The notes under the pieces: generated by a model | What the model was told of the DNA's origin: nothing | Database searches by the model: none | The model's input: only the letters and a program-made list of their open reading frames with translations | Made by a program: the position numbers and the translations under genes | Source of the DNA: Pseudogymnoascus verrucosus | Taxonomy: Eukaryota | Length of the DNA: 64,000 nt | Assembly (NCBI GenBank): GCA_001662655.1 | Contig: KV460236.1 | Direction: 5' to 3' (one strand) | Shown here: piece after piece, positions 10,562 through 44,600 of the stretch | Position numbering within the stretch: the stretch's first letter is position 1 | Layout: each line of letters opens with the position of its first letter

Positions 10562-13234
10562 CTATCCCTCTCCCTGCTCACACCACCACCAGCTGCCACC
10601 CCGCTTCCTCTCAGCGACCGAACTTGCACCGGTCCCGCCCCCGTCCCTCCGCCCTCCACCACCGCCACCCCCTCCTCCTCCCAATCCCCCCAACCCCTGC
10701 CCACCAGGCCCACCCGGCGGCATCCCAACACTATCCCACAAACTCCTCGGCACCTCCACCACCTCCCTCCTCCTCCCCCCGGCTCTATTAACATGCCTAA
10801 CATGCTTATAATTAGCATTAACCTTCGCCTTCAAAAAACTCGGATGCGGCTTCTGTGTCCGTCCCAGCGTCGCGAAATCACTCGTCACCTTCGCCGCATC
10901 AGAGAGTTTCGCTAGAGGTTTGGAGGCCGGGTGCATGATGGCGCGGGAGGCTTTGTCTTCTTTGTCTGTTATGGATTTCATGGGTTTGAAGCGCGGGCGG
11001 GGTGGGATGCGGGGTTCGCGGGGGGGTGGGGGGGAGGGCGAGTCGGAGGAAGGGTAGCAGCGGTCTGGACTTTGTGGGGTTGCTGCATCGTCGCCATCAC
11101 CGCGACGACGACGACGGCGTTTTGGTAGTGGAGGGGGGATACTGCGCTCGCGTTGTCTGCCGCGGGAGGGCGAGCGGGGAGGGGCGAAGGTGGATGCGTG
11201 TGAGGAGACGGAAACGCTGGACCGGGGCCGTTTGTTTGTCGCAGCGCCGGATTCAGGGGCTGTGCTTGGGCGCGCTGTTTCTTGCCGGTGCAGTGGGGAG
11301 GGTCTGGGTAGGGGCGCAGGCTGCCTGGCGCGGGGAGGTGGGGAGGGGGCGAAGCGGGAGCCGATGGAAGAATTGGATGCGCTGGATTGAGGCCGTTTGT
11401 TGGCGGGGGCGCTAGCTTCGGGTGCTGTGCTTGGGCGGGCGGTTTCCTCTCGGTGGAGGGGAGAAGGTTTCAGTGCTGCAATGGGCTGTCTGCCGCGTTG
11501 TGGTTGGCTGGATGCAGGGGCTTGCGGTCCGCGCGGCGGTTGAGTGGGAAGATCGAAGCGCGAGCCGATGGAAGTGGATGAGGCGCGGGAGTCGGGCCGT
11601 TTGCTGGGGCGAGCGCTGGCTTCGGGTGCTGTGCTCGGTCGCGCGGTTTCTTCTTGGGGGAGGCGGGAAGGCTTGAGTGCTGGAATGGGGGTTTTGGCGC
11701 GCTGGGACGGTGGGGGGGCATCTTGGGGGTCGCCGATGGAAGGCGCGGGGTCGACTAATTTCGGGGGCGACTTGTGGCGCGTGCCGGCGTCAATTGGTAC
11801 AACTGGTTGCTTGCTTTTTTGTCGCTGGCCTTGAGGGGGCTGGGGGGCAATGGTAGATTGCTTGGCGCGGTGTGATGGCGAGGTGAGGTCGAAGCGGTCG
11901 CCGATGGAAGATGCCGAAGCGATCGATTTCGGTGGGGGTTTATAAAGGGTGTTGATATGGAGGGGAACTCCTGTCTGGGTGTCCCTTTGTTGGTAGACTT
12001 GGGAGGGTGTGGGCGCGGGAGGCGTCTGTCTAGCGTGGTGTACAGATGGCGGTGGATCCAGGGGATCACCGACTGAGAACGCGGAGGTTTGTGGTTTCGG
12101 GGGTAGCTTGCGGCTCGTGTCGGGATCAAGCGGTTCCCCATGGCGCTTGTTCTCACGCCTCTGGATAGGGGCGGCTTTGGGTCCTGGGACGGGCCGTGTA
12201 GTGTTGCGAGGCGATTGTGGATCCAACGGGCCGCCAACGGAGGACGCAGACCCCGTAAATCTGGGGAATTTTCTCTGGTTTGTGTTTGAATCAAGAGATT
12301 CTTCATTCCGCTTGTCCTCCTGCCTCAATATATAGTCTGGTTTTGGCGCTAGAGCGGGCTCTCTCGCGTGGCGAGGCGGTGAGGGTGAATCCAAGGGGCC
12401 GCCAACGGAGGACGCAGACCCCGTAGATCTGGGGAATTTTCTCTGGCTCGTGTTTGTATCAAGAGGTTCTTCATTCTTCTTCTCCTCCCTCAAGATATAG
12501 TCAGGTGTTGGCGCTAGAACAAGGTGTCTAACCTGGCGAGGAGGTGAAGGTAGGTCGTAAAGGTCAGCAAGGGATGATTCAGATGCTTCCAATTTTAGGA
12601 AGTGTTTGTGGCGGGCGCTGGCAGCAGGCGGTGTCTTTGCCCGTCTGCTCTCCTGTCGGTCTCCATGCTCGGCTTTAATCGGCCTGGAGCGTTCGCGGAC
12701 GTCTTCATCCGCTGGAACTGGAGCGGCAAGAGCGGCAGCAGGGCCCGCTGTTTCCCGAGCGCGGACATGCTCGCGATCACCCGGCTCGCTGCCTTCGGGG
12801 GCGTCTTTGTCGGCCGGATCGGGAGCTGGGGGGGGGCCTGCGGCTTCCCGTCTGTGCTCCGGTTGGACCGGCTTGCTTTGTTCAGAGGCGTCGGCTCTGG
12901 CTCTGGCGGCGGCTGCTGGAGGGAAGTCAGTAAATCGGGCCGAGACAAGGCGAAGGGGGGACTTACACTGCAAGCGCTTCACCGTCCTAGCTTGCAATTT
13001 AACGTCACTTATATACCCGTGGTCCTTGATTAGTTGAAACAACTGTTTTTCAGCGCGGAGGAGGGTCGGGTCGGTCTGCCGCGGTGGTGATTTCTCTCGC
13101 AGCTGCTCAATGCAGCGGACTTGCATGCGCAAGAACTTGCTGGCTGGGTCGTCCTCGATTATTTTAAAAATTGTGTCGAATATTCTTTTTTCAAAACCAC
13201 CTTGCTCTTCTTTCCTCTTTTTCGCCTCTTCCAT
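10562..13234 (-). CDS. Large Pro/Ser/Arg-rich, probably disordered protein with ~9 degenerate ~56-aa tandem repeats
   Basis: Open frame longer than 2.6 kb; ATG in strong context (TTCACCATGG) at 13234. Repeats are also visible in the DNA (CCGCCAACGGAGGACGCAGACCCCGTA at 12231 and 12399, 168 bp apart). The true start is uncertain. Confidence 0.7.
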   Translation of the reverse strand: MEEAKKRKEEQGGFEKRIFDTIFKIIEDDPASKFLRMQVRCIEQLREKSPPRQTDPTLLRAEKQLFQLIKDHGYISDVKLQARTVKRLQCKSPLRLVSARFTDFPPAAAARARADASEQSKPVQPEHRREAAGPPPAPDPADKDAPEGSEPGDREHVRARETAGPAAALAAPVPADEDVRERSRPIKAEHGDRQESRRAKTPPAASARHKHFLKLEASESSLADLYDLPSPPRQVRHLVLAPTPDYILREEKKNEEPLDTNTSQRKFPRSTGSASSVGGPLDSPSPPRHAREPALAPKPDYILRQEDKRNEESLDSNTNQRKFPRFTGSASSVGGPLDPQSPRNTTRPVPGPKAAPIQRRENKRHGEPLDPDTSRKLPPKPQTSAFSVGDPLDPPPSVHHARQTPPAPTPSQVYQQRDTQTGVPLHINTLYKPPPKSIASASSIGDRFDLTSPSHRAKQSTIAPQPPQGQRQKSKQPVVPIDAGTRHKSPPKLVDPAPSIGDPQDAPPPSQRAKTPIPALKPSRLPQEETARPSTAPEASARPSKRPDSRASSTSIGSRFDLPTQPPRGPQAPASSQPQRGRQPIAALKPSPLHREETARPSTAPEASAPANKRPQSSASNSSIGSRFAPSPPPRARQPAPLPRPSPLHRQETARPSTAPESGAATNKRPRSSVSVSSHASTFAPPRSPSRGRQRERSIPPPLPKRRRRRRGDGDDAATPQSPDRCYPSSDSPSPPPPREPRIPPRPRFKPMKSITDKEDKASRAIMHPASKPLAKLSDAAKVTSDFATLGRTQKPHPSFLKAKVNANYKHVRHVNRAGGRRREVVEVPRSLWDSVGMPPGGPGGQGLGGLGGGGGGGGGGRRDGGGTGASSVAERKRGGSWWWCEQGEG

Positions 13235-14551
13235 GGTGAATATCCGGAGGTTTTGTATGGTTATAGGCGTAGGTGGTGGTGGCTCGCGTCGATACCTGTA
13301 TCTTTTCAGGGCACGGCGGTAAGTGGAATGGGCTATTTCGTTTTCGTTATACGTGCGAGTATTTGTAGGCTGGTATGTCAAGTGTCCGCGTGGTTTGTGG
13401 GGGTTCTTCTGTCAGTTGCTGTTAATTCACCTCAACATCACTCGGGCATTGGGTTCTGTACCTTCCTGGCGGCAGTGAATCTGACGCTTCGAGGTCTCCT
13501 TGCCGCTACCCGCGATACCCTGCTCGGTGCAATTGACGCGGAACGTACTGAAGACAACCTCACATACCGTATACCATCGGCCTTTGCTTTTGCTTTTCGC
13601 AGCTCATCCTCGCGGTGTAGTTTCTGCCACTTCACCCCCTTAAAGTTTTTCAGGTGCTTCTGCCGCTTCTCAATTTGCTCACGCTCCCAGGATGATACTC
13701 TCCGGACTGGCACACATTTTCGGTCATACTTCTTTTTCAGAGGACCTTCCGAGTGCATGGTTCTTTTGGACTCAGTTTGAGTTTGCTAGTGAGCAGTCAC
13801 TGTATCCAAAATGATTCAACTGAAAGGCTCGATCGAGTCGTACATGCTGTTCTTATATACATCGTTACATCAAAGGGGAGGCTATCTTCATATATCCATT
13901 GCCATACGCTTTATCTCTTTCTTCAATCGAGGTCATTCTATCATATTCACTTTCTCCCTTCGGTCTTCTTCGTCAATATCCCACTTTGACTTCATTGTTG
14001 TCCAACCATGCCGTCGTCAACGAGTCTAAACAATGACTCCAGACGAAGCTCCCTACCAAGATTGGACTTCAGGAACGAGTGACAGGAGACATAGCACGCA
14101 CTAATGAACTCTATTTCCGGCTGGTCCAGTTGAAAGCTTGATCGATCAATCAGGTGCGGCCATGGTAACACTAGCCATTTACCATACGTTTTCTGTCGGT
14201 CATTTTGAAAATGTCCGGGGATGCTATGGGCCGCCCTCCCATCTCACCCTTCCTCTCTTTCTCACACATCACCTCGAAAGCACTTTTGGACAAAACTGCC
14301 AATATTATTCTTCGCCAATCTATATACGAAGCTCTAAGATCACTACAGCTGCTGTTCGGCTTCTGTTTTTCAAACTCTAGTCTTCAACCAATATTATATA
14401 AGGTTGGTGTTCTCATATTCCCATCCAAACCAGTTTCCAAAGTAACGTCTAATGGCAAGACAGGAAACTACAATAGACCAAAGAAATTCTCGCCCGAGAG
14501 TTCTCATCCCGACCATCCCTCGTCCAAGAAAGCTGACACATCGTCGTCACC

Positions 14552-14995: not shown

Positions 14996-15125
14996 CCTCC
15001 CGGTCTTATTCGCATCACATTCCAAGCTGCTTTAGCTAAAGCTCTTAGCTTGTGCGAGCATTTTTGTGTTGGAAAATCCACCAGCATCATTAGCATTAAT
15101 ATATTACTTCTTGTATGTTTACAGC

Positions 15126-16261
15126 TCATGGTGGACTCTCCACTACAGCGGCTTCTAAAACAGCAAACTTGTTCCTCGTGGAATCTAAGCTCGCCAATGC
15201 ATTCAAAGGAATCGTGAGGATAGGATCTGTGTGACCGATATCAACATTAAACAGGATAGGAAAGTCTGTGCCGTGACACTGGTCCAAGATCATCTGCTTG
15301 AACCCCTTCTTCTGTTCCTCGTCGTACTTGAAAGGTCTACCAACGACCAATCCACTGATTTGCTTGAAAATCCCCAAGTTGACGAGGTCGGCCATTAGTG
15401 AGCGAGTCTGCTCGTACGGCAGGGGGCCGTTGGGGGTCTCTCCTTCAGGGTTCTCGAGGATGAGGATCCGACCTTGGTAAGAGGGGAAATACTTTGTCCC
15501 CGCAAGCTGCAGAATAGAGGGAAGACATCCGCCGAAGAGGCGGCCTGTAGCTTGGCCTGGTCGGAGCCACTCCCAACCCGTGGATGGGGTCCTAAGATCT
15601 CAAATTAGCTAAACCCCGATGGAATGGCATGAGGAAAGACGGTGACTTAACACCGAAGTTATACATACATATGTCTGGGCCGCAGCTCATCGTCTCCATT
15701 ACCCCAGTCACGAAACTCCTCCGTCCACTCAATCGAGCGGGGCAGAACACCAACTGGCTCTCCTACACTCTGAAGCACCTTAAAAAAGTGGTTTAGTGTA
15801 AAATCGAGCGGCTTAGGAAATTCCCCAAACTGCGTGATGGCAGCAGGGCCATAGAACGTCTGCAGCCCCGTCTGGGTAAAGATAGCATGGTGGAGCAGCG
15901 TGATGTCCGAATATCCGCAGAAAATCTTTGGGTTCTTTTTAATAAGGTCATAGTCCAGATGCGGGAGGAGCTCATTGGCAGAGGGGCCACCGATGGTGCA
16001 GATTATGGCTTTGACCTCTGGGTCGCGGAATGCGGAATGGATCTCGTTGCAGCGGTGGAGAACTGTCTCGTGGAAGGTCAAGGGCATTGGGTCGGAGAAG
16101 AATATCTTGATGCGGTACCCTAGGCTTTCTAGGAATGTCTGCGCGCGAGAAACCCGCGAGGGGAAGACGTGGTTTAGTCGGCTGGAGGGTGATATGAAGG
16201 CGATTATATCTCGTGGCTCTAGGGCTTGGGGTAATAATCTAATGGCATTGAGAGCGGCCAT
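15126..16261 (-). CDS. Peptidase family S66 (LD-carboxypeptidase / microcin C7 immunity MccF-like); intron 15592-15668
   Basis: Motifs IAFISPSS, KAIICTIGG, KIFCGYSDIT (catalytic Ser), GRLFGGCL, ILILE (Glu) and DIGHTDP (His). The Ser-His-Glu triad appears intact after splicing. Confidence 0.92.
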
Positions 16262-16556
16262 CCCTAATTTAAAAGGGGGTATTAGATTCTGTAGTAGTCG
16301 GTGATTATCAGAGACTACCGAGGTCAAAATGATAGAAGGGGGAGAGCATTGATTTTAGACGTAGCACACAAATTAAAAAGTCATCCACGAGGTTACAGCC
16401 GCGCCCCGCTAAATTCTGCAGCCTCAGCAAGTGGCTTTATTCTATAAATATCATTACTACTACCCAGCACAGTTTTTATAAAAAGCTCCGATACTCGTGC
16501 AAACACATATCCATAAGTGTAGTATTCTAATTGCCATAGATTATTTACCCTATGAA

Positions 16557-16569
16557 CGGGGGATTGCCG
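16557..16569. promoter_or_regulatory. Candidate Zn2Cys6 site CGG-N7-CCG, ~295 bp upstream of the S66 gene
   Basis: CGGGGGATTGCCG; same spacing and similar spacer as the sites upstream of phacA and fahA. It also lies in the 3' flank of the regulator gene. Confidence 0.4.
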
Positions 16570-16655
16570 CCCAACCGCCTTCCGGCCTGGTATCTGGTAT
16601 TTAACGAAGTTTTTCCATTTTGCCCTTCCATCCTATTTAAATTCGCCTGCGGTAA

Positions 16656-19138
16656 TTAAAATAGATCTCTCAGCTGTCTGTAGAGCTCATCCTCGCCCCC
16701 AAAAGCGTTTGCTCCCCCCGCCATCCCAACCATATTCTCTCCACTACTAACCCCCCCATCATCCATCTGACTAGGCCCAGGATATCCGCCATGAAGACCC
16801 GTCCCCGCCCCCAGCGCTGCCTCGAAAAGATTCGTCATTTCGTGACTCATTTGAAACCCATTGATAGGGCTATTCTCAACCGCAGACACCGAGTGTCCGT
16901 TTCCTCCATTACTCCCCCCTCGGCCATCCTGGCCCATAAACCCATGCATACCAGAGATCTCATGGCCAGCCAATCCGGCCATCGCTAGCGCGGCGCTAGA
17001 ATGGGGATCGTCTAGCGACCCTCCTCTGGCGACAGGTGCTTGTTCCTGCTCCAGTCCTAGTTTTGGGCCTACTTCTTTGAGACCCTTTATGGTGCGCCAG
17101 AGGCGCTTGGAGACGTATGATTTTGAGCTGAAGCCGCGAACGAGCTCGAGTGCCATGTAGAATTCATCCTTGCAGACGGCGCTGAACTGCACAGGGGCAT
17201 GGCAGGAGGCGAGGAAGATGACGGCTAGTGCGGAGATGAGAAAGTAGTTGAAGCACTGTTGTTGTGCGCGGTAGATATCCGTCGTTTGGTTTAGGTGGGT
17301 AAGGGCGCGAATGCTATCTTTCGCCAATTCAACAACCGTCTGCGCGTATGACAGGTTCTCCATTATCGAGTTTGCCGAGTGCAGGACGGGGCGATAGATC
17401 AGGATGCGCATCTGGTTGCAACGTACGTATAGGAGGACCTGCAGGCGATGCATTGCGCGGCTTACAGATTGCGGTGAACCGTTTGTGGGGAGTTGCAGCT
17501 CAGGAGGGATGGCCTTCTGCCACTGCAAAATCTGGTAGTCGAGGTAGCCGATGTCTTCCTTCTTGATATCTGTCGGGGCAAGGCTGTCGAAACCTGCCAC
17601 GGAGCGCCAGACACGCGACCCAATACGGGAATATGATATCATGACACTGAGATAAGGGATCTTGACTTCCTGCGATGTTGTTAGGAGAGCAGCAGAGTGA
17701 GGGAGAGGACAGAAACTCACGGGCCCAGGTAAGCTTGGGTCAATATCCGCATCTTGCATAGCGAATGGCATGCCTGTACCAAAACTCCATCGCCGATCGA
17801 GGCAGTAGATTGACCAGAACAGCCTGACGGCATTTGCACGGCCTTCTTCATCTGGGAAATTCTTGAACAAAGAGTCTCGACGATGCAGCCCAAGCTCAAC
17901 ACACATTCTGGAGGCCTGTCCAATTACACGCCAGGCAAGAGCTCTAGTAATCAATTAGTAACGTGGACACGAGAAGCGGCGGGACTAACATACTCTTCAT
18001 CACAGTGGAAGTGATAAGTTGCCACAAGCACTACCAAGGGTATATCCTTAATTGAAACCCCCTCAGTATGGATAATATTATCTGAAGCACGTTTTGTGTT
18101 CTCATACAGCCGATTGGCAAACTCGCTCTGGCCTGAGCATTCAACGGCAGACGCTATACTCAGGACCATCTTCAAAATGTTCAAATCTTGCTCTGCGACA
18201 GGACTCGGCGACTCGGTATTGGGGTTCTGCCCATTCTTCGGAGAACCTTCTTCCATAAACCGATATTGGGCATTAGCGACTTGCGCAACCCAGTTCATGT
18301 CCAAGAATGGATACATGATGCATATTTCATCTTCGTACACCACGCATAGCCGTAGTGCCTCCTCTTTTGTTATCGACCACAGCGGATCTTTAAACGGATG
18401 CGATGGCAAAACGGCCTGTCTCATTGGCGGCGATCCTGCAGGTGTATCGTCCTGCATCCCATTCCCATCTTCTCCGCCTTCTAGACCCGGGTATCCCATA
18501 TTTTGTAGAGTGTTCTTTGCGACATCAAAACTGAATGCGGAGCTTGTCGGTCCTTGGAATCGGGGATGTTTGGGAGGAGGAGGGCGATAGGTTAAAGCCG
18601 GGCTTGTACTCTGTATGCTCCTCTGGCTCATCGACCCTGTCATCGACCCCTTATTGGGGCCGATATCTCCGCTGCGCAACGCATTGAGGTTCGCGTATAG
18701 GTTATCGATCTGTTCCTGCAGACTCGAGAGATGCGCATTCATCTGTTTGAACTCCTCCGAGTCCTTGAACCCATTCGCGCAGCAGTTAGGCGCATACTGG
18801 CATTCGAGGTTGAGGTTCCCGCACCGTTGGCAAGGTGAGTTTCCATTGCATTTGATTTTGCGGCGCTTGCATTCGTTGCTGTCAGATCTGTCAGTCGGGA
18901 GTTCCGCATTCAGCCCTTGCATTCCACAGCATTTCGAATTGCAAGGTAATCAAAATTAGACCCAGTGCGCCACGGAATAGGCGCGCGATAAGGTGTGGTC
19001 TTACCATGCGATTGAAATATAGCGATTCCGTTTTGCTCTAGGTTGCCCACCATTCTGGGGTCCAAGGTCGTCGCTTTTCCGCTTTCCTTGGTCCCGCGCT
19101 GGGCTTTCCGCACTGTCAGTGCCCCGTCGATCTGCCAT
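16656..19138 (-). CDS. Zn(II)2Cys6 transcription factor with fungal-specific TF domain; introns 18879-19004, 17944-17993, 17670-17720
   Basis: Spliced zinc cluster ACNECKRRKIKCNGNSPCQRCGNLNLEC; middle homology region ELGLHRR...FWSIYCLDRRWSFGTGMP. Confidence 0.93.
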
Positions 19139-19742
19139 GGCGTAACCAGCGACGAGGGGGAGCGGGAGGGGAGAGTCGACTAGGCTCGACAGGTCGCTGA
19201 CTTGGGTCTCGAGAATATTTTGCATGCTCACGAGCGCATCATGGGTGATTGAGGCGTCGGACAGACAAATGGTGTTGTTTGGAGACGGGAACCCGAGCGG
19301 GACCTTTGGCCCGAAGAAAGGCGGAGGAGTGTTGGGATCTACACCTGGGGGTGGGACTAAAATACTGGGGTAGCTTGGCGCAAAAGAAATTATAGGCCCA
19401 TTATAAAAACCGCATTAACAACCAGTTCAAAGTTGTCAGCCTCGAATTAATACAAAGACTGAATTGAATGTATGAATATTTGCGCGTAGAGTATGCGAAG
19501 ACAACATAAAGACCTCAGATTAAGATAATTTTTGCTTATTCAACCCATAACAGTAACGGTCTATTTACATTTAACTGCACACCCAGGGTATAAGTATTTG
19601 AGCCTACTGTGAAAAGGAGTGTCGAGGCCGTGACTCGACATGAAATTCCCTCAACACTGTAACTGCAAATCTTCTGGAAACGTTGCCACCGAACGGGCAG
19701 TTTGGAAAACATCCCCCCAACTCCTTTATCATGCCCCAATCA

Positions 19743-21422
19743 TCAGGTAGACAAGTGTCTCGTCTTATCTTCGCTCTCTTGGATCCACTGCTTGAGTGAT
19801 TCTGAGTCCCTGGCGCGGAAACCACACTTAAATGGCTTTGGTTCAGTTGTCAGAGACGTTGGAATAGCGTTGCATCCCAACGCATCCAGGATAGGAAGAT
19901 CCTCTGGCTTCTGAGCCGGATCAATGTGGAAAGCCATTATCATGCGGACAAACGCGACGTATAATTCGCGGTTGGCAAGGTGCGAGCCAGCGCACATACG
20001 AGATCCAGCACCGTAGGCAAAGTGAGGAGTGCCACCGGAACCCTCCAGATTGTCGAGATAGCGCTCAACGGAGAATTCCTGGGGACTCTTGAAATGAGTC
20101 GCATCATAGTCTGCGGCCCATGCGTTCATGTAGAAGGTTGTTCCGGCAGGGATGACTGCATTTTCGTACTTGATGTCCTTGATGCTCGTTCGTGGCAGGC
20201 AGATGGGAATGACGATGAAGAAGCGAAGCACCTCACGAACGAAGGCGGTGACATAGGATACCTTCTCCTCCAAAATACACTTCTCCCAGGCATCTCCATC
20301 GGGGTATACTTTCATAATTTCGTCGTAGGCACGTTTTTGGATTTCTTGGCCGTGAGGTGACGAGAGGTATGCGATTCCCATAATCAAGTTCCCTGGCACG
20401 GTATCGAGACCTGCAGAGACCATGGTAAGACAGATTGACTTGATCTCGTCTGTGCTAAGCTTCGCTTCCGGGTCTTTGAGAATCTGTCATCGTAATGTTA
20501 GTAATATTCCAAACGTTTCGTGGTTGGTGGTTCTAAACTTACGTTGCCAGTAATGCAAGGCTTATCAACTCCTCTTTCGATCTCGCCCTTGAGCCTAGCC
20601 AGTAAAAAGCTCAAGTACTTGTCTCTGCGCTCTCTGTACTCTTTCGGTCCCTTGCTGCTGCTTGGCCACAACCTCATAAGCGGAATGTAGTCCTGCCAGT
20701 TGTTGCTAGTACTTCTGAAGTTGCTCACGACTCTCTCAACGTGACAAATCTCTTGCAGCAGTTCATCGTCGATTTTCCCGTCAATTCTTGAGCCATAGTT
20801 GAGTGTCAAACTTGTGTTCAGGGCAAATCTCTGGAAGTATGCAATGGGATCAATATCGACAGTGCCGTCCTTGGAATCCTGGAAGATTTCTTTGATGGAT
20901 ACGTTGCATTCGAGGTCAAGAATTGGCATGTAGGATTGGACAGCTGGGCGGTTTAGAGCAGTGGCAGCAGCCTTGCGACGGTTTTTGCATGACTCGTCCC
21001 ACGGGGATGTCCCGACAGTGAAACCTTGCGAGGAGGAGACGACCGTGTGAAAGGTGTGAAGAGTAGGGCGGGAGATGAGAGCCGACTGGTTCGTGATCCA
21101 GAGGTGGCGAACAGAATCGAAGGTATTGGCAAATACAATTCTCTGAAGCAGGTTAGATTCCAACACATGGAATTGAGAGTTCAACGGAGAACACTAAACG
21201 TACCCTGTTGCCTAGGCGGACTTGGAACACCGGGCCATATGTCTTCGAGTAATTGTATGCCGCTGTAGCATGATCGCTGCCGAATTTAAGGAGAGAACCA
21301 AACAGAGGAAGTCCAGGAACCTCAGGTAGGTTCTTAATTTTGGGCGTGTCGGTGTGGTTCAAGTATTTAACAAATAAATATATCACAGCGGCAATCGCAA
21401 TGCCGACAACTTGGTAACCCAT
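19743..21422 (-). CDS. phacA: Cytochrome P450 phenylacetate 2-hydroxylase (CYP504A-like); introns 21143-21203, 20484-20542
   Basis: CYP504 signature QSALISRPTLHTFHTVVSSSQGFTVGTSPWDESCK, I-helix SAGLDT, EVLR, and heme motif FAYGAGSRMCAG. Confidence 0.9.
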
Positions 21423-21589
21423 TTTGGAGGAGATCTTCGCAGGCGGTAGATACAAAAAAAGATGCAAGTAAAAGCTCCAGAGCTGCTGTCGCCTTCTTAT
21501 ATAACAATACGAGGGGAAAACGACCGTATATATTTATGCCTTGAATTGGTTGGAGTTACCGATGCTAAATTGGTTTCTGGGGAAGTAGG

Positions 21590-21602
21590 CGGGGATATTC
21601 CG
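21590..21602. promoter_or_regulatory. Candidate Zn2Cys6 site CGG-N7-CCG, ~170 bp upstream of phacA; overlaps a CreA-type GCGGGG
   Basis: CGGGGATATTCCG (reverse complement CGGAATATCCCCG). Further GCGGGG sites at 21811, 21854 and 21865. Confidence 0.5.
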
Positions 21603-21992
21603 CGGGCGCTTCTATGGCCCAGTGTATTTCAATCTCACTAGATCCTCGTTCACTCAAAGCTTCAATAGACATGAATCTCGAATTACCGAGAGACATCCGG
21701 CATTTATATGCCACGTTGGTGAGCTGTCGACGCTTCAACGTGCATTTAGGAGCAGGTTCCGCGTTTGGATGACGGTGGGCACGGAATAGGTGCGCTACAT
21801 ATTCCCAAATGCGGGGTACTAATTTTCAGCGGAGTGCCGTACCTTACGAACGTGCGGGGAGAATGCGGGGCCTTCAGTTTCGGAGTTCATCACAGCAAAC
21901 AAGTCCGCGAAAAACAATTGAGGCATTAGTAATGGAATTTATTTGATTTTTAGCCCTAAACTATACGAGGCACGAGATATCTAGTTGCTGAC

Positions 21993-23394
21993 TTATTGTT
22001 GGAGAGGTGGGGCAGGCAGGATGGTGCCCACGCATTCTCCAAATCCTACAAGCTGGCCATTCTCAACCCCGCACGCCCCACGAATAGTAACAGTGTCACC
22101 ATCGACGAGGAATTTGCGAACTTCTCCGTTGGAAAGCTTGACCTCCTCTTTACCAGCACGGTTGATCTCGAGTAAAGACCCCAGAGTATCGCGCTCAGTA
22201 CCAGAAATGGTACCAGACCCAAGGAGATCACCAGTGTTCATTGGGCAGCCACCGACGGTGTGGTGGGCAAGCATCTGGGGGAACGACCAGAGGAGGTTTG
22301 CTGCTGTGGTCTTGGAGATAGTTGTGTTCGTTCCGTCCGATGCTTCAATATGTTAGCCAATGCCATAAATGTAGAAACCGGGATATTCTTACTGGTTAGG
22401 TCAACCTCAAGCTTAATATCGTACGCACGATTTGCTTGTGGGTCCTTCAGATATGCGGTCAACTCGGTAGAGTTCTCCAGAGCCTTTGTTCTGAAAGGCT
22501 CCAGGGCATCCATGAGGACGACCCAAGGGGAGATCGATGTGCCGAAGTTCTTGGCATTGAATGGTCCCAGTGGGACATACTCCCACGTTTGAATATCTCT
22601 TGCAGACCAATCGTTCATAAGGACAAGACCGAAGAGGTTATCTTCCGCTGTGCCAACTGGTATCGGCTCGCCCTGCTTGTTTGGCGTGCACACAAACGCA
22701 GCAAGCTCCAGCTCAATATCTAGCCTCTTGCATGCGGTATAGGTCGGTTCGTCAGGCTTGGATGGATCAAGGATAACTTGGCCGTTAGGTCTGCGAATTG
22801 GTGTTCCGGAGACCACAACAGACGATGCACGCCCATGGTATCCAACTGGGAGATGAGTATAGTTCTTTTGGAGGGCGTTGGCTGGACCGCGGAACATAGT
22901 TCCAACCTAGAACTTTGTTAGAGAGCTTCAAACCTTCATATTTAGAAGTTTCTTACGTTGAATGCATGGTTAATGCCGGCGAAAAAGTCGGTATAGTCGC
23001 CAATTTGCATTGGCAAGTGAAGCTTGGCCTTGCTCCTGGGAACTAGAGCCTCCTTCTTGAGCTCCTCGTTGTCCTTGAGAACCTTTGATGAAGCGCTACC
23101 TTCCGAAAACACGTCTTGGAGGTATTCACGAACTTGCTTGTGTACTGGGCGACCAAGCGCTGCGAATGAGTTCAGGGTTGGCTCTCCAAACACGGACAGC
23201 TTGTCTTGGATGGAAGGAAGCCCAGAGAATCCGCCATTCTTTGCGAAACACTGCAGATCCAGCGCGTAGTCACCAATTGCAACTGCTGACCTCTTCTGCT
23301 CTTGTCCCTCTGTGCTGATGATCCCGAAAGGGATATTTGCTATGGAGAAGTGAGAATCCGCTGGGATCTCCAGCCAGCTCTTTGATGCGACCAT
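21993..23394 (-). CDS. fahA: Fumarylacetoacetase; introns 22907-22956, 22343-22392
   Basis: Motifs SHFSIANIPFG, IGDYTDFF, HLPVGYHGRASS, LDIELE, LMNDWSARDIQ.WEYVPLGPF and GDLLGSGTISG. Confidence 0.95.
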
Positions 23395-23579
23395 TTTGAA
23401 GATGTTTTTGAGTCCTTTAGTTGCCACGATTGTTTATACGCAAAGAAGACAATGGACAAGAGAATAGATGAAGATTATTTGCAGAAATCACAAAAGAGGA
23501 GTATGCAGGAGAGCTTACATTTGTTCAATATATCGGGCGGGTATAGAAGGGACAACAAATAATGCGGCATGACCCCGCT

Positions 23580-23592
23580 CGGAATTCCTCCG
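23580..23592. promoter_or_regulatory. Candidate Zn2Cys6 site CGG-N7-CCG, ~185 bp upstream of fahA
   Basis: CGGAATTCCTCCG, 10/13 identical to the reverse complement of the phacA site. Flanked by CCCCGC (CreA-type) at 23573 and 23611. Confidence 0.5.
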
Positions 23593-23991
23593 CGGTAATC
23601 GGACCAGCTGCCCCGCATACGTCACTTGTGTGCGGTACGGACCCCTGGATCCTGATTGGCTAGCATCCTCAGCTTCAAAAAACCTTAATTGTTGCGTCTT
23701 GTTGTTTTTGGAGAAACGATTAAAATAACGAAGCCGATAACCGGAGATGGAGACCCCAATTATGGAAACAGAAGGCTCTATTTTTGCGTGACGTTTGACA
23801 CAGCTTGGTGGCGATTGCCAGACTGCCTCAAAAGCAATTCACGGGCAAGATACGGTGCAATTGGAGAAAATTGTTTGCTAGGAAACGTGCATTTCAAAGA
23901 CCTGGCGGAGTAGAAAAGACCGCACCGGCCCACTTGGGCAGGGTCCTAGATCACCTCCAAATATCCTGGAGCGAATGAGCTCAACGGAACA

Positions 23992-41643: not shown

Positions 41644-44600
41644 TTAAGTAATAGAAGAAAGCAGCTTCACTACTCCCTCATGCCCATTCTCTGCAGCCAA
41701 CGAGAGTGGCGTCCCGCCACCGCTATCTGTAGTCTCTAGCTTAGNNNNNNNNNNNNNNNNNNNNNNNNNNNNNNNNNNNNNNNNNNNNNNNNNNNNNNNN
41801 NNNNNNNNNNNNNNNNNNNNNNNNNNNNNNNNNNNNNNNNNNNNNNNNNNNNNNNNNNNNNNNNNNNNNNNNNNNNNNNNNNNNNNNNNNNNNNNNNNNN
41901 NNNNNNNNNNNNNTTAGCGCCCTTGTCAAGCAGCAGCTTCACCACTCCCTCATGCCCATTCCCTGCGGCCCACGAGAGTGGCGTCCGGCCACTGCTGTCT
42001 TCAGTCTCTAGCTTAGCGCCCTTGTCAAGCAGTAGCTTCACCACTCCCTCATGCCCATTCCCTGCGGCCCACGAGAGTGGCGTCCGGCCACTGCTGTCTT
42101 CAGTCTCTAGCTTAGCGCCCTTGTCAAGCAGCAGCTTCACCACTCCCTCATGCCCATTCCCTGCGGCCCACGAGAGTGGCGTCTGGCCACTGCTGTCTTC
42201 AGTCTCTAGGTTAGCGCCCTTGTCAAGCAGCAGCTTCACCACTCCCTCATGCCCATTCCCTGCGGCTGACGAGAGTGGCGTCCGGCCATGGCTGTCTTTT
42301 GAGTCGATGTTGACTATGTCGGAGTTAAGTAGCGACTTGACGATGGCCTTGTGCCCGTCCCGCGCGGCTAGTAACAGCGGCGTCCGGCCCTCTTCATCTA
42401 TTTCATTCGTGTTTACTACATTGCCTTTGAAGAGCCTACGCAGTAGGTCGTACATAAGTGACTCTTGCTCCGAAATGCAAAAGAGGTGCTGCAGCCAATA
42501 TGCCTTTGCATATGAATGAAAGTGGAACTCATCCGCTAATTGAGGACTGACAAGCTTGCTTGTTTCCGCAAGAGTCTTTTCAATGTTGAAGTTAGGTTGC
42601 TTCCTAGACTTCAAAAGCTTTAATGCAAGACTTTGAACACTGCTTGGTACGTCTAGTGTTGAACGAACGATTTGGGATGGCGCTGATGCGGTCATTATTT
42701 GCTGGACTACCCTAGTAGATAGCTGGGTTCCAAAAACGCCATAATTGAGGTAGGTGACAATAATGTTTGCTATTGTTCTGTTTGCGCTATCAATTGTGAT
42801 TCCTATGTTAGCTGAGTCTTTAAACCCGCTAAAGAGAAATTGCTTAACGCTATGGTGCACGAGTCGTATGGTCTTCTCCTCTTCATCGATAGTAAGGAGG
42901 CTTCCGCAGCAAGTTAATGTTGAATGTATGTCATTAAGACGCCTTGAGGGGTTCCAAACAGCGTCGCCAGGGACAACGCTTAAGGCATCTCGAAGTGCTT
43001 CTGCTGTTAAGGGACGGCAAGCTATAGTTATAAGCTCTAATATCCGTCTCTGATACGGCTTTCCATATTGTTCTGATTTCCGTAGAATACGAAAAAATGT
43101 TTCTGAGAGATCCTTGGGAAGATCCGCTAGAGCCTGGCGAATAGCATCATCTGTTTTCATGTTGCATAAGGACTCGATTTGTAGAGCTACCCAGAGAAAC
43201 ATTCCCTGGGATCCTTTAATGAGGGCGTCTTGGATTTCTAGTATAAGCATAGGATTTCCTATCACTAGCCTTTTAGACTCTATGCGACTCTCTAATTCTG
43301 CTAAGATGAATGCGTCAATATCAGGGTTATCATCTGGAATTGATGTAACCTGGGCGTTAATGAACTGCTCTAGGCTCAATTTCAAAACGTTGCTAGGATC
43401 GAGTCGGACTGATACACATACAAGTAGTGAAAATGTCTTCTGAAACTTCCAGAGCTGTTTGATTAATATGTCTCTTTCAGCTGGGTCACATTCATCCAGC
43501 CCGTCAAGGACGAAGTACGCTCTTGACGTAGGTGGAAGAGAGTGTTGGAGTAAGCTGAAAATCTCTTCGAAATCCAGAGCAAGATCAGTAGTGGTCTTAT
43601 CAATGAATCTCGCTACTATCGCGAGATCTGCTATTAGGCGCAACAATTGTCGGGCTAGAGAACCAATGACTGTCCGCGCTTTCAAACTTTCTAGAATGTC
43701 GTGCCGGCAAAAGAAGTAAGCAACCGTAACATTCTTACTTCGACAGTTAAGATTTAGATCATCAATTAGGTTAGCTAGCAGAACGGATTTTCCGGATCCT
43801 AGCCCGCCCGTACATATTAGTGTACAGGAAGATTTTTGACCTTTCCAGTCCTTATATGCGACAATTTGGTTGAGTAGAGTTGTGTTTCCGATCTTTCGCG
43901 TCTGCTTCCATGTCGTCTCATAATCATATATAGAGCAGGAATCGAGGACCCGTACGTTTGTCTTTAGCTTTTGCCGAAGCGATACAGATTCAGAAAACTT
44001 GCTAGAAAAAGCTCTGAATTTAGAGTTATCTTGGGCTTCCTCCTTAATCATTTTTGTCGTTAGCAGGGTCGCCTCCTCTTTAATCTCATTCGCCCAGCGG
44101 TCGAGATCAGATTGGTATGTTTTCATGTCTGAATCACTTAGAGTAGATGCAAATTGCGCTAAGGCGGACTTCTGTGTAAACTTTAACGATTGATGGCAAA
44201 GATGAACCACCACAATGAAATATTCGTGCAGGTAGGACTGCATTTTCTTAGAGCGCGGATATAGCAATGCCATCATCTGGTAACGAGGGGCCGAGCGACC
44301 AGCGGTCATAAGGAGTTCTGATAACTTTTCCAGATAGGAAGTGAAGTTTGCAATTGACTACGAAGATTTTAGTACAAGATGCAGCTAAAGATGTCAAGGG
44401 TTACTGACAAGCAATGACATTCGCACCAACGACCAGACACCGCAAGCGATTAGATTCTGTGACCCGCCTATTATAACATCACCAAGCGCAGCGAATTGCT
44501 GAACGCCGTGCAGAAAACTGATCAGCCGAGGCGCAAAACAACGTCTGCAACCAATCTTTCTAGTAGCGTCTCCAATTTCAGCTATGAGTTGGTCAACATC

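What the first reader, a model, noticed from the sequence alone, without database searches (positions are those of the whole stretch)
15126..23592. Phenylacetate/homogentisate gene cluster that appears to have recruited an S66 (MccF/LdcA-like) amide hydrolase
Seen: four adjacent co-oriented genes (fahA, CYP504A, Zn2Cys6 TF, S66 peptidase) separated by spacers of only ~0.4-0.6 kb; the S66 Ser-His-Glu triad looks intact. Known: PhacA and FahA act in fungal phenylacetate -> homogentisate -> fumarate + acetoacetate catabolism, while S66 enzymes are characterised in bacteria (murein LD-carboxypeptidase, microcin C immunity). I know of no role for S66 in aromatic catabolism. Inference: it may release an arylacetic acid from an amide conjugate (e.g. 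phenylacetyl-amino acid or xenobiotic amide) to feed the pathway, or detoxify an acyl-adenylate.
Basis: partly seen in the sequence, partly recalled or inferred. Interest (0 to 1): 0.75.

Follow-up and report, generated by a model that had tools for sequence, protein, structure and literature searches.

The report
Phenylacetate genes beside unrelated MccF-like hydrolase
A soil fungus keeps three genes for breaking down phenylacetate side by side, and the bacterial-type hydrolase gene next to them looks like a chance neighbour found there only in this genus, not a new part of the pathway.

Summary
Four co-oriented minus-strand genes of Pseudogymnoascus verrucosus (named) lie 394, 517 and 570 bp apart: fumarylacetoacetase, a CYP504A/PhacA orthologue, a Zn2Cys6 regulator and an S66 hydrolase with an intact Ser118-Glu244-His318 triad.

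The recruitment reading is not supported.
- Fumarylacetoacetase and the P450 are neighbours well beyond this genus. They are adjacent or fused in 5 species and share a contig in 6 more, of 13 compared. A similar cluster is in print for black yeasts.
- S66 sits beside them only within Pseudogymnoascus (8 of 10 named assemblies). In 6 of 6 species outside the genus, S66 and the P450 lie on different contigs. This includes Hyphodiscus, whose S66 is the sister sequence in the tree.
- Spliced RNA contigs confirm the introns of the regulator, the P450 and the fumarylacetoacetase.

S66 belongs to the MccF (microcin C immunity) branch, not the murein LdcA branch, by sequence and by predicted fold. It keeps the adenine-stacking Trp. 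The nearest prokaryotic relatives lie beside tRNA-synthetase-like and methyltransferase genes.

Most likely this is an ordinary catabolic trio next to a stand-alone detoxifying hydrolase. The scan had noted MccF-like genes in archaeal cassettes before, but not this fungal arrangement.

The parts
15126..16261 (-). S66 serine hydrolase of the MccF branch (VE01_06597). Two exons, 16261-15669 and 15591-15126, 352 aa. S118/E244/H318 triad and W186.
   Evidence: Pfam. The model is identical to P0001. PDB sequence matches. Predicted fold with pLDDT 93.4 and fold search.
16656..19225 (-). Zn2Cys6 transcription factor with a Fungal_trans domain. Four exons, 780 aa from the ATG at 19225 (751 aa from 19138).
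   Evidence: Pfam. The model is 96% identical to P. destructans VC83_02687, P0266. All three introns are seen as joints in spliced contigs of X17 and X18, and one in X13.
19743..21422 (-). CYP504A phenylacetate 2-hydroxylase orthologue (PhacA/PahA; VE01_06599). Three exons, 519 aa.
   Evidence: Identical to P0121. 68% identical to P0203, named pahA of P. chrysogenum. Both introns appear as joints in X17 and X18.
21993..23394 (-). Fumarylacetoacetase (FahA; VE01_06600). Three exons, 433 aa.
   Evidence: Identical to P0252. E 4.5e-127 to solved fumarylacetoacetase 9sqs. Both introns appear as joints in X13, X17 and X18.
21737..21747 (-). 11-mer AAATGCACGTT, about 315 bp upstream of the P450 ATG. 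It is shared with the fumarylacetoacetase promoter.
   Evidence: This is a weak, post hoc hint only.
23884..23894 (-). Second and only other exact copy of AAATGCACGTT in the window, about 490 bp upstream of the fumarylacetoacetase ATG.
   Evidence: There is no similarity beyond the 11 bases.

Best explanation
The stretch holds an ordinary fungal catabolic module followed by an unrelated neighbour. PhacA (CYP504A) hydroxylates phenylacetate on the way to homogentisate. FahA carries out the last step, giving fumarate and acetoacetate. The Zn2Cys6 protein between them and S66 is their likely pathway-specific activator. The S66 gene downstream is a stand-alone, probably cytosolic Ser-His-Glu hydrolase of the MccF branch. 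It most likely cleaves the carboxamide bond of an acyl- or aminoacyl-nucleotide-like compound, with the base or ring stacked on W186. That would inactivate aminoacyl-adenylate mimics made by bacteria, or a related small amide. It came to lie beside the module in the Pseudogymnoascus lineage with no functional tie. Shown here: gene identities, splicing of three of the genes, the synteny pattern, and branch membership of S66. Inferred: the regulator's targets, the S66 substrate, and its independence from the module.
For: Their adjacency is conserved widely. Locus tags are consecutive in Bathelium, Pleopsidium, Schaereria and Xylographa bjoerkii, and there is one fused model in X. trunciseda. They share a contig in 6 more species and lie on different contigs in 2, of 13 species I recognised in both lists. 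Published work agrees. A PHA + HGD + fumarylacetoacetase cluster is described in Herpotrichiellaceae (PMC5358931, passages). Phenylacetate induces pahA, hmgA, maiA, fahA and a clustered transcription factor in P. chrysogenum (PMC2657799, passages). S66 is linked to the module in 8 of 10 named Pseudogymnoascus assemblies. It lies on a different contig from the P450 in 6 of 6 species outside the genus: Hyphodiscus, Mollisia, Scytalidium, Lachnellula occidentalis, A. heteromorphus and X. bjoerkii. Hyphodiscus S66 is the sister of the window's S66 in the tree (SH-aLRT 96). No P. destructans S66 appears among the 12 members of the 90% cluster or the 120 best hits, although its fumarylacetoacetase and regulator are there. 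MccF-branch chains match at E 1e-54 to 1e-42 over the full length, against 1e-9 to 1e-19 over part of the length for LdcA. TM-scores are 0.82-0.86 against 0.67-0.73. W186 and F183 align with W180 and F177 of B. anthracis MccF. In 6 of 8 prokaryote-like loci examined, the nearest S66 relatives lie next to tRNA-synthetase-family genes, mostly with a SAM methyltransferase.
Against: Within Pseudogymnoascus the S66 gene is co-oriented and starts only 394 bp after the regulator's stop, so read-through or shared control is physically possible. I have no expression data for S66 under any condition. The synteny test outside the genus rests on contig lengths and locus tags of 6 species, not on whole-genome comparison. 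Fungi may carry S66 paralogues. The positions that align with N210 and S238 of B. anthracis MccF are C220 and E247 here, so the acyl-group pocket differs from the characterised MccF enzymes and the substrate is open. No fungal S66 enzyme has been characterised: PMC5567314 lists the function as 'unknown in fungi'.
Confidence: 0.7

Rival explanations
1. One reading: in Pseudogymnoascus, S66 has become an accessory enzyme of the module under the same regulator. It would free phenylacetate or another arylacetate from an amide or acyl-nucleotide conjugate.
For: S66 is co-oriented, with a 394-bp spacer directly downstream of the regulator. The linkage is kept in 8 of 10 named Pseudogymnoascus assemblies. 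The side-chain pocket differs from MccF (C220 and E247), so a non-aspartyl acyl group is possible. An aromatic stacking platform is present (W186, F183).
Against: The linked genomes are near-identical (proteins at least 90% identical), so the linkage is inherited, not independently kept. S66 is unlinked in 6 of 6 other species, including the sister S66 of Hyphodiscus. P. destructans keeps the fumarylacetoacetase and the regulator but shows no annotated S66. The only motif shared by the P450 and fumarylacetoacetase promoters is absent upstream of S66. No S66 enzyme is known to act on arylacetyl amides (my searches).
Confidence: 0.1
2. S66 is a true LD-carboxypeptidase that trims peptidoglycan fragments of bacteria, for food or for interaction with bacteria. 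This was suggested for fungal S66 in the literature.
For: PMC5567314 (passages) proposes degradation of bacterial cell-wall components. The Pfam family name and many database names say LdcA.
Against: Sequence and fold place it with MccF, well above LdcA. The review PMC8323819 (passages) states that LdcA cannot protect against microcin C, so the two branches differ in function. The MccF stacking Trp is kept.
Confidence: 0.12
3. S66 is a decaying or functionless leftover of an old transfer from bacteria.
For: Its distribution in fungi is patchy and transfer has been proposed (PMC5567314). There is no annotated copy in P. destructans.
Against: The reading frame is intact and holds a canonical intron. 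36 columns are invariant across 41 fungal sequences, including the triad. The fungal clade is coherent and includes chytrids (SH-aLRT 99). The model is confident, with pLDDT 93.4.
Confidence: 0.03

Closest known systems
MccF, microcin C7 self-immunity serine carboxypeptidase (E. coli; B. anthracis MccF and MccF-like BA_5613; PDB 3tla, 3gjz, 4e5s)
   Same: Same two-domain S66 fold (TM 0.82-0.86). Full-length sequence match at E 1e-42 to 1e-54. The Ser-His-Glu triad and the Trp/Phe pair of the nucleotide-binding loop are aligned.
   Different: Eukaryotic, with an intron, and not next to any antibiotic gene cluster. Only 28-33% identical. C220 and E247 stand where B. anthracis MccF has N210 and S238, so the acyl-group specificity is probably different. 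Activity is untested.
LdcA, murein tetrapeptide LD-carboxypeptidase (E. coli 5z01, P. aeruginosa 1zrs)
   Same: Same peptidase family (S66) and the same catalytic triad type.
   Different: Much weaker match: E 1e-9 to 1e-19 over part of the length, TM 0.67-0.73, 19-24% identity. Fungi have no murein of their own.
Fungal phenylacetate/homogentisate catabolic clusters (PHA-HGD-fumarylacetoacetase cluster of Herpotrichiellaceae, PMC5358931; hmgA-fahA-maiA + transcription factor of P. chrysogenum, PMC2657799, and of Aspergillus)
   Same: phacA next to fahA, with a Zn2Cys6 regulator. The same pathway enzymes. Adjacency is conserved across classes.
   Different: This window has no hmgA, maiA or hppD. 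The published clusters list no S66 gene ('carboxypeptidase' occurs 0 times in PMC2657799).
Prokaryotic cassettes of a catalytic-domain-only class II tRNA-synthetase homologue, a SAM methyltransferase and S66 (metagenome loci L007, L009, L010, L014, L015; compare the agrocin 84 agn cluster reviewed in PMC8323819)
   Same: Their S66 proteins are the closest non-fungal relatives found, at 40-49% identity.
   Different: The fungal gene has none of these partners. It stands beside catabolic genes here, beside housekeeping genes in L008, and beside an NLR and an unrelated P450 in L069.

Membership tests
Peptidase S66, MccF branch | Both S66 domains (PF02016 and PF17676) | tested here: met
   E 3.3e-35 and 2.2e-25 on the two exons.
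Peptidase S66, MccF branch | Ser-His-Glu catalytic triad | tested here: met
   S118, E244 and H318 are invariant in 41 of 41 fungal sequences. S118 and H318 align with S112 and H303 of B. anthracis MccF (numbering from PDB titles).
Peptidase S66, MccF branch | Nucleobase-stacking Trp of the MccF loop (E. coli W186, PMC8323819; B. anthracis W180) | tested here: met
   W186 aligns with W180 and F183 with F177 of 3gjz (counted by hand). Position 186 is W, F or Y in 38 of 41 fungal sequences. The alignment to the E. coli chain itself was not displayed.
Peptidase S66, MccF branch | Closer to MccF than to LdcA in sequence and fold | tested here: met
   (E 1e-54 to 1e-42 against 1e-9 to 1e-19). (TM 0.82-0.86 against 0.67-0.73).
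Peptidase S66, MccF branch | Residues that hold the aspartyl side chain (E. coli N220 and K247, named in the title of PDB 3tly) | tested here: inconclusive
   The GGN Asn of B. anthracis MccF (N210) aligns with C220, and S238 aligns with E247. The equivalence to the E. coli residues is inferred from the motif and numbering, not from an alignment I saw.
Peptidase S66, MccF branch | Hydrolysis of microcin C or aminoacyl-sulfamoyl adenosines | not testable with these tools
   This needs the purified enzyme.
LdcA murein LD-carboxypeptidase | Best matches are LdcA enzymes | tested here: not met
   LdcA chains rank below all MccF-branch chains.
CYP504A (PhacA/PahA phenylacetate 2-hydroxylase) | More than 55% identity to a named CYP504A member (P450 nomenclature rule, recalled) | tested here: met
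   68% identity over 517 residues to P0203, named pahA of P. chrysogenum. PMC2657799 reports that the PhacB-type paralogue is only 42% identical to PahA.
Fumarylacetoacetase (FahA) | N-terminal and C-terminal FAH domains, and a full-length match to solved fumarylacetoacetases | tested here: met
   (E 4.5e-127, residues 6-428).
Metabolic gene cluster that includes S66 | Linkage kept beyond close relatives | tested here: not met
   S66 and the P450 lie on different contigs in 6 of 6 species outside the genus. For fumarylacetoacetase and the P450 the same test is met in 11 of 13 species.
Metabolic gene cluster that includes S66 | Co-regulation with the pathway genes | not testable with these tools
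   No usable RNA evidence for S66 (see Tried and rejected).

The most novel reading that the evidence does not exclude
In Pseudogymnoascus an MccF-type hydrolase, whose acyl pocket has changed (C220, E247) while its aromatic stacking platform is kept, has come under the phenylacetate regulator. It would release phenylacetate from amide or acyl-nucleotide conjugates. That would be the first S66 enzyme in aromatic catabolism and the first assigned function for the widespread fungal S66 clade.
Probability: 0.08. Interest if true: 0.65.

Novelty: new member of a known kind. Interest (0 to 1): 0.22.

Why it matters
The catabolic part adds nothing new. phacA-fahA clustering with a regulator is already known in fungi. 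The useful outcomes are negative and taxonomic. Adjacency inside one genus is not evidence of recruitment. The fungal S66 proteins, usually labelled 'LD-carboxypeptidase LdcA' in databases, belong to the MccF immunity branch. If fungi use them against bacterial aminoacyl-nucleotide antibiotics, that would be a modest new piece of fungal-bacterial warfare, and it can be tested with one recombinant enzyme.

Tried and rejected
**No whole genome.** None is held for the window (error). So I could not look for hmgA, maiA, a second fumarylacetoacetase or S66 paralogues.

**Metagenome scan with the fungal S66 alignment.** It returned 80 loci. Most have no introns and are 30-49% identical. The three most fungus-like (L001-L003) are only 1.6-3 kb long. 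This gave no fungal synteny. tblastn of the P450, fumarylacetoacetase and regulator against all 80 loci found a single hit, an unrelated P450 in L069 at 30% identity.

**Sequencing runs.** No RNA holder is listed. When four runs were laid, no contig of X13, X17 or X18 covered 15000-16454, the S66 gene. The DNA run X7 did cover it.

**Promoter comparison.** The P450 and fumarylacetoacetase promoters share one 11-mer in the same orientation, and it is the only exact pair in the window. About 0.15 shared 11-mers are expected between two such regions (my estimate), and the choice was post hoc. The flanks do not align. CGG/CCG pairs occur in all four upstream regions with no common spacing. None of this is usable as a binding site.

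**Context of L021 and L035.** I dropped both. Their high G+C gave dozens of overlapping ORFs, and 62 of 182 ORFs were sent.

**Papers.** The primary MccF structure paper could not be read (not held under the ids I tried). Residue roles therefore come from a review and from PDB titles. Searches for a published role of fungal S66, for Pseudogymnoascus with phenylacetate 2-hydroxylase (0 papers) and for the five-term cluster query (0 papers) found nothing relevant.

**Regulator identity.** Whether it is the orthologue of A. fumigatus HmgR was not tested.

**Tree.** This is the quick version. The careful search did not finish.
Full report
**What is there.** The window is fungal. One search returned a 352-aa protein, 100% identical to the first S66 exon, named VE01_06597 of Pseudogymnoascus verrucosus. 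Pfam on the open frames of 15126-23433 finds, all on the minus strand:
- Peptidase_S66 + Peptidase_S66C
- Fungal_trans + Zn_clus
- p450 (three pieces)
- FAA_hydrolase_N + FAA_hydrolase

I built exon models from the sequence and checked them in scripts. The S66, P450 and fumarylacetoacetase models are letter-for-letter identical to the database proteins P0001, P0121 (VE01_06599) and P0252 (VE01_06600). The regulator model is 96% identical to P. destructans VC83_02687. The spacers are 394, 517 and 570 bp. Four co-oriented genes at this spacing are not unusual in themselves.

**Splicing.** Four public runs were laid on 15000-23700. Contigs of three runs from two coded organisms skip exactly my introns.
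- X17 and X18 show all three regulator introns, both P450 introns and both fumarylacetoacetase introns.
- X13 shows both fumarylacetoacetase introns and one regulator intron.

These three genes are therefore transcribed and spliced in close relatives. For S66 see Tried and rejected.

**The catabolic part is ordinary.** The P450 is 68% identical over 517 residues to the cluster representative named pahA of P. chrysogenum. Harris et al. report that the PhacB-type paralogue is only 42% identical to PahA (PMC2657799, passages). The P450 is therefore a CYP504A/PhacA orthologue. The fumarylacetoacetase matches solved fumarylacetoacetases at E 4.5e-127 over residues 6-428.

I compared the hit lists for the P450 and the fumarylacetoacetase by eye, taking species and assemblies present in both. 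I left out pairs from different strains or species, such as Diplocarpon, Drepanopeziza, Paecilomyces variotii, Coleophoma and Cryomyces. Of the 13 species kept:

| Relation of fumarylacetoacetase and P450 | Species |
|---|---|
| Consecutive locus tags (4) | Bathelium mastoideum, Pleopsidium flavum, Schaereria dolodes, Xylographa bjoerkii |
| One fused gene model (1) | X. trunciseda |
| Same contig (6) | Hyphodiscus, Aaosphaeria, Dendryphion, Corynespora, Delitschia (45 kb), Lepidopterella (97 kb) |
| Different contigs (2) | Polytolypa, Arachnomyces |

A PHA-HGD-fumarylacetoacetase cluster is described for black yeasts (PMC5358931, passages). Phenylacetate induction of the whole pathway, together with a clustered transcription factor, is described for P. 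chrysogenum. No hmgA, maiA or hppD lies in this window.

**S66 is linked only within the genus.** The 90%-identity cluster of S66 has 12 members, 10 of them named, and all are Pseudogymnoascus.
- In 8 of these 10, locus tags, accession order or contig length place S66 beside the P450, regulator or fumarylacetoacetase.
- In 2 (VKM F-4520 and F-4518) the genes lie on different small contigs, which leaves the question open.

These genomes are so close that shared order is simply inherited.

Outside the genus, S66 and the P450 lie on different contigs in 6 of 6 species in which I found both: Hyphodiscus hymeniophilus, Mollisia scopiformis, Scytalidium lignicola, Lachnellula occidentalis, Aspergillus heteromorphus and Xylographa bjoerkii. 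One search confirms that each is a single-member cluster on one contig. In X. bjoerkii the P450 and fumarylacetoacetase are adjacent while S66 is elsewhere.

In a quick maximum-likelihood tree of 68 sequences, the fungal S66 proteins form one clade (SH-aLRT 99). The window's protein is sister to that of Hyphodiscus (96), and the Mollisia group comes next. The unlinked genes are therefore its nearest relatives, not distant paralogues.

No P. destructans S66 appears among the cluster members or the 120 best hits, although its fumarylacetoacetase and regulator do. This suggests the trio does without S66 there. That is an inference, because the gene could be unannotated.

**What the S66 protein is.**
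- Against solved structures, it matches MccF-branch chains over its full length at E 8.7e-54 to 1e-42. LdcA enzymes match only in part, at 1e-9 to 1e-19.
- A confident model (pLDDT 93.4) gives the same order by fold: TM 0.82-0.86 for MccF-type chains and 0.67-0.73 for LdcA.
- In the printed alignment to B. anthracis MccF, S118 and H318 align with S112 and H303. F183 and W186 align with F177 and W180, the loop residues that were mutated in PDB entries 3tyx and 3sr3.
- The review PMC8323819 (passages) states that W186 of E. coli MccF stacks on the adenine and that LdcA does not protect against microcin C.
- Position 186 is aromatic in 38 of 41 fungal homologues.
- By contrast, the Asn of the GGN motif and S238 of the B. 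anthracis enzyme are C220 and E247 here, so the acyl-group pocket differs.
- Muszewska et al. list the function of S66 as unknown in fungi (PMC5567314, passages).

**Context of the nearest non-fungal relatives.** Of the 80 metagenome loci, I annotated the surroundings of 10.
- Two are eukaryotic. L008 carries housekeeping genes. L069 carries an NWD-NACHT gene and a P450 only 30% identical to PhacA.
- Of the 8 prokaryote-like loci, 6 (L007, L009, L010, L012, L014, L015) have tRNA-synthetase-family genes within 4.5 kb of S66. In most of these the neighbour is a class II catalytic domain without an anticodon domain, together with a SAM methyltransferase.

This fits an immunity role against aminoacyl-adenylate mimics. 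It also matches earlier notes of this scan on archaeal cassettes, which I treated as a lead only.

**Verdict.** The stretch is a known kind of catabolic gene group (fahA, phacA, regulator) followed by a stand-alone MccF-type hydrolase. I put 0.7 on S66 being functionally unrelated to its neighbours. The recruitment idea is cheap to test by expression profiling on phenylacetate.

Noticed in passing
L007:1629-6331, L009:153-6228, L010:2416-6118, L014:6201-13604, L015:1082-4913: In prokaryotic metagenome contigs, the S66 genes closest to the fungal clade (40-49% identity) lie beside catalytic-domain-only class II tRNA-synthetase homologues and SAM methyltransferases. Some loci also have class I synthetase homologues or a radical SAM gene, and L007 has a second S66 copy. 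This looks like a recurrent cassette for making or resisting an aminoacyl-nucleotide compound.
   Followed up: partly
window 15126-16261 compared: No S66 protein of P. destructans appears in the 90% cluster or among the 120 best hits, although its fumarylacetoacetase (VC83_02685) and regulator (VC83_02687) are present. The gene may be lost, decayed or unannotated in that species.
   Followed up: partly
window 19743-23394; proteins P0223, P0122, P0254, P0265: Several database gene models wrongly fuse neighbouring genes: P450 + fumarylacetoacetase in Xylographa trunciseda, P450 + regulator in Pseudogymnoascus sp. VKM F-4520, and longer fusions up to 1722 aa. These merge unrelated proteins into one 90% cluster.
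   Followed up: no
window 10565-13411 (-): A 949-codon open frame that is rich in proline and serine has visibly repeated blocks of about 50 residues and no Pfam match. It is the next gene downstream of S66.
   Followed up: no
window 41745-44357 (-): An NLR-type gene (NACHT/NPHP3_N plus ankyrin repeats) is interrupted at its 3' end by a run of 169 N at 41745-41913.
   Followed up: no
window 21737-21747 and 23884-23894 (-): AAATGCACGTT occurs exactly twice in the 64 kb. Both copies are in the gene orientation, in the P450 and fumarylacetoacetase promoters. It could be a regulator site or chance.
   Followed up: partly
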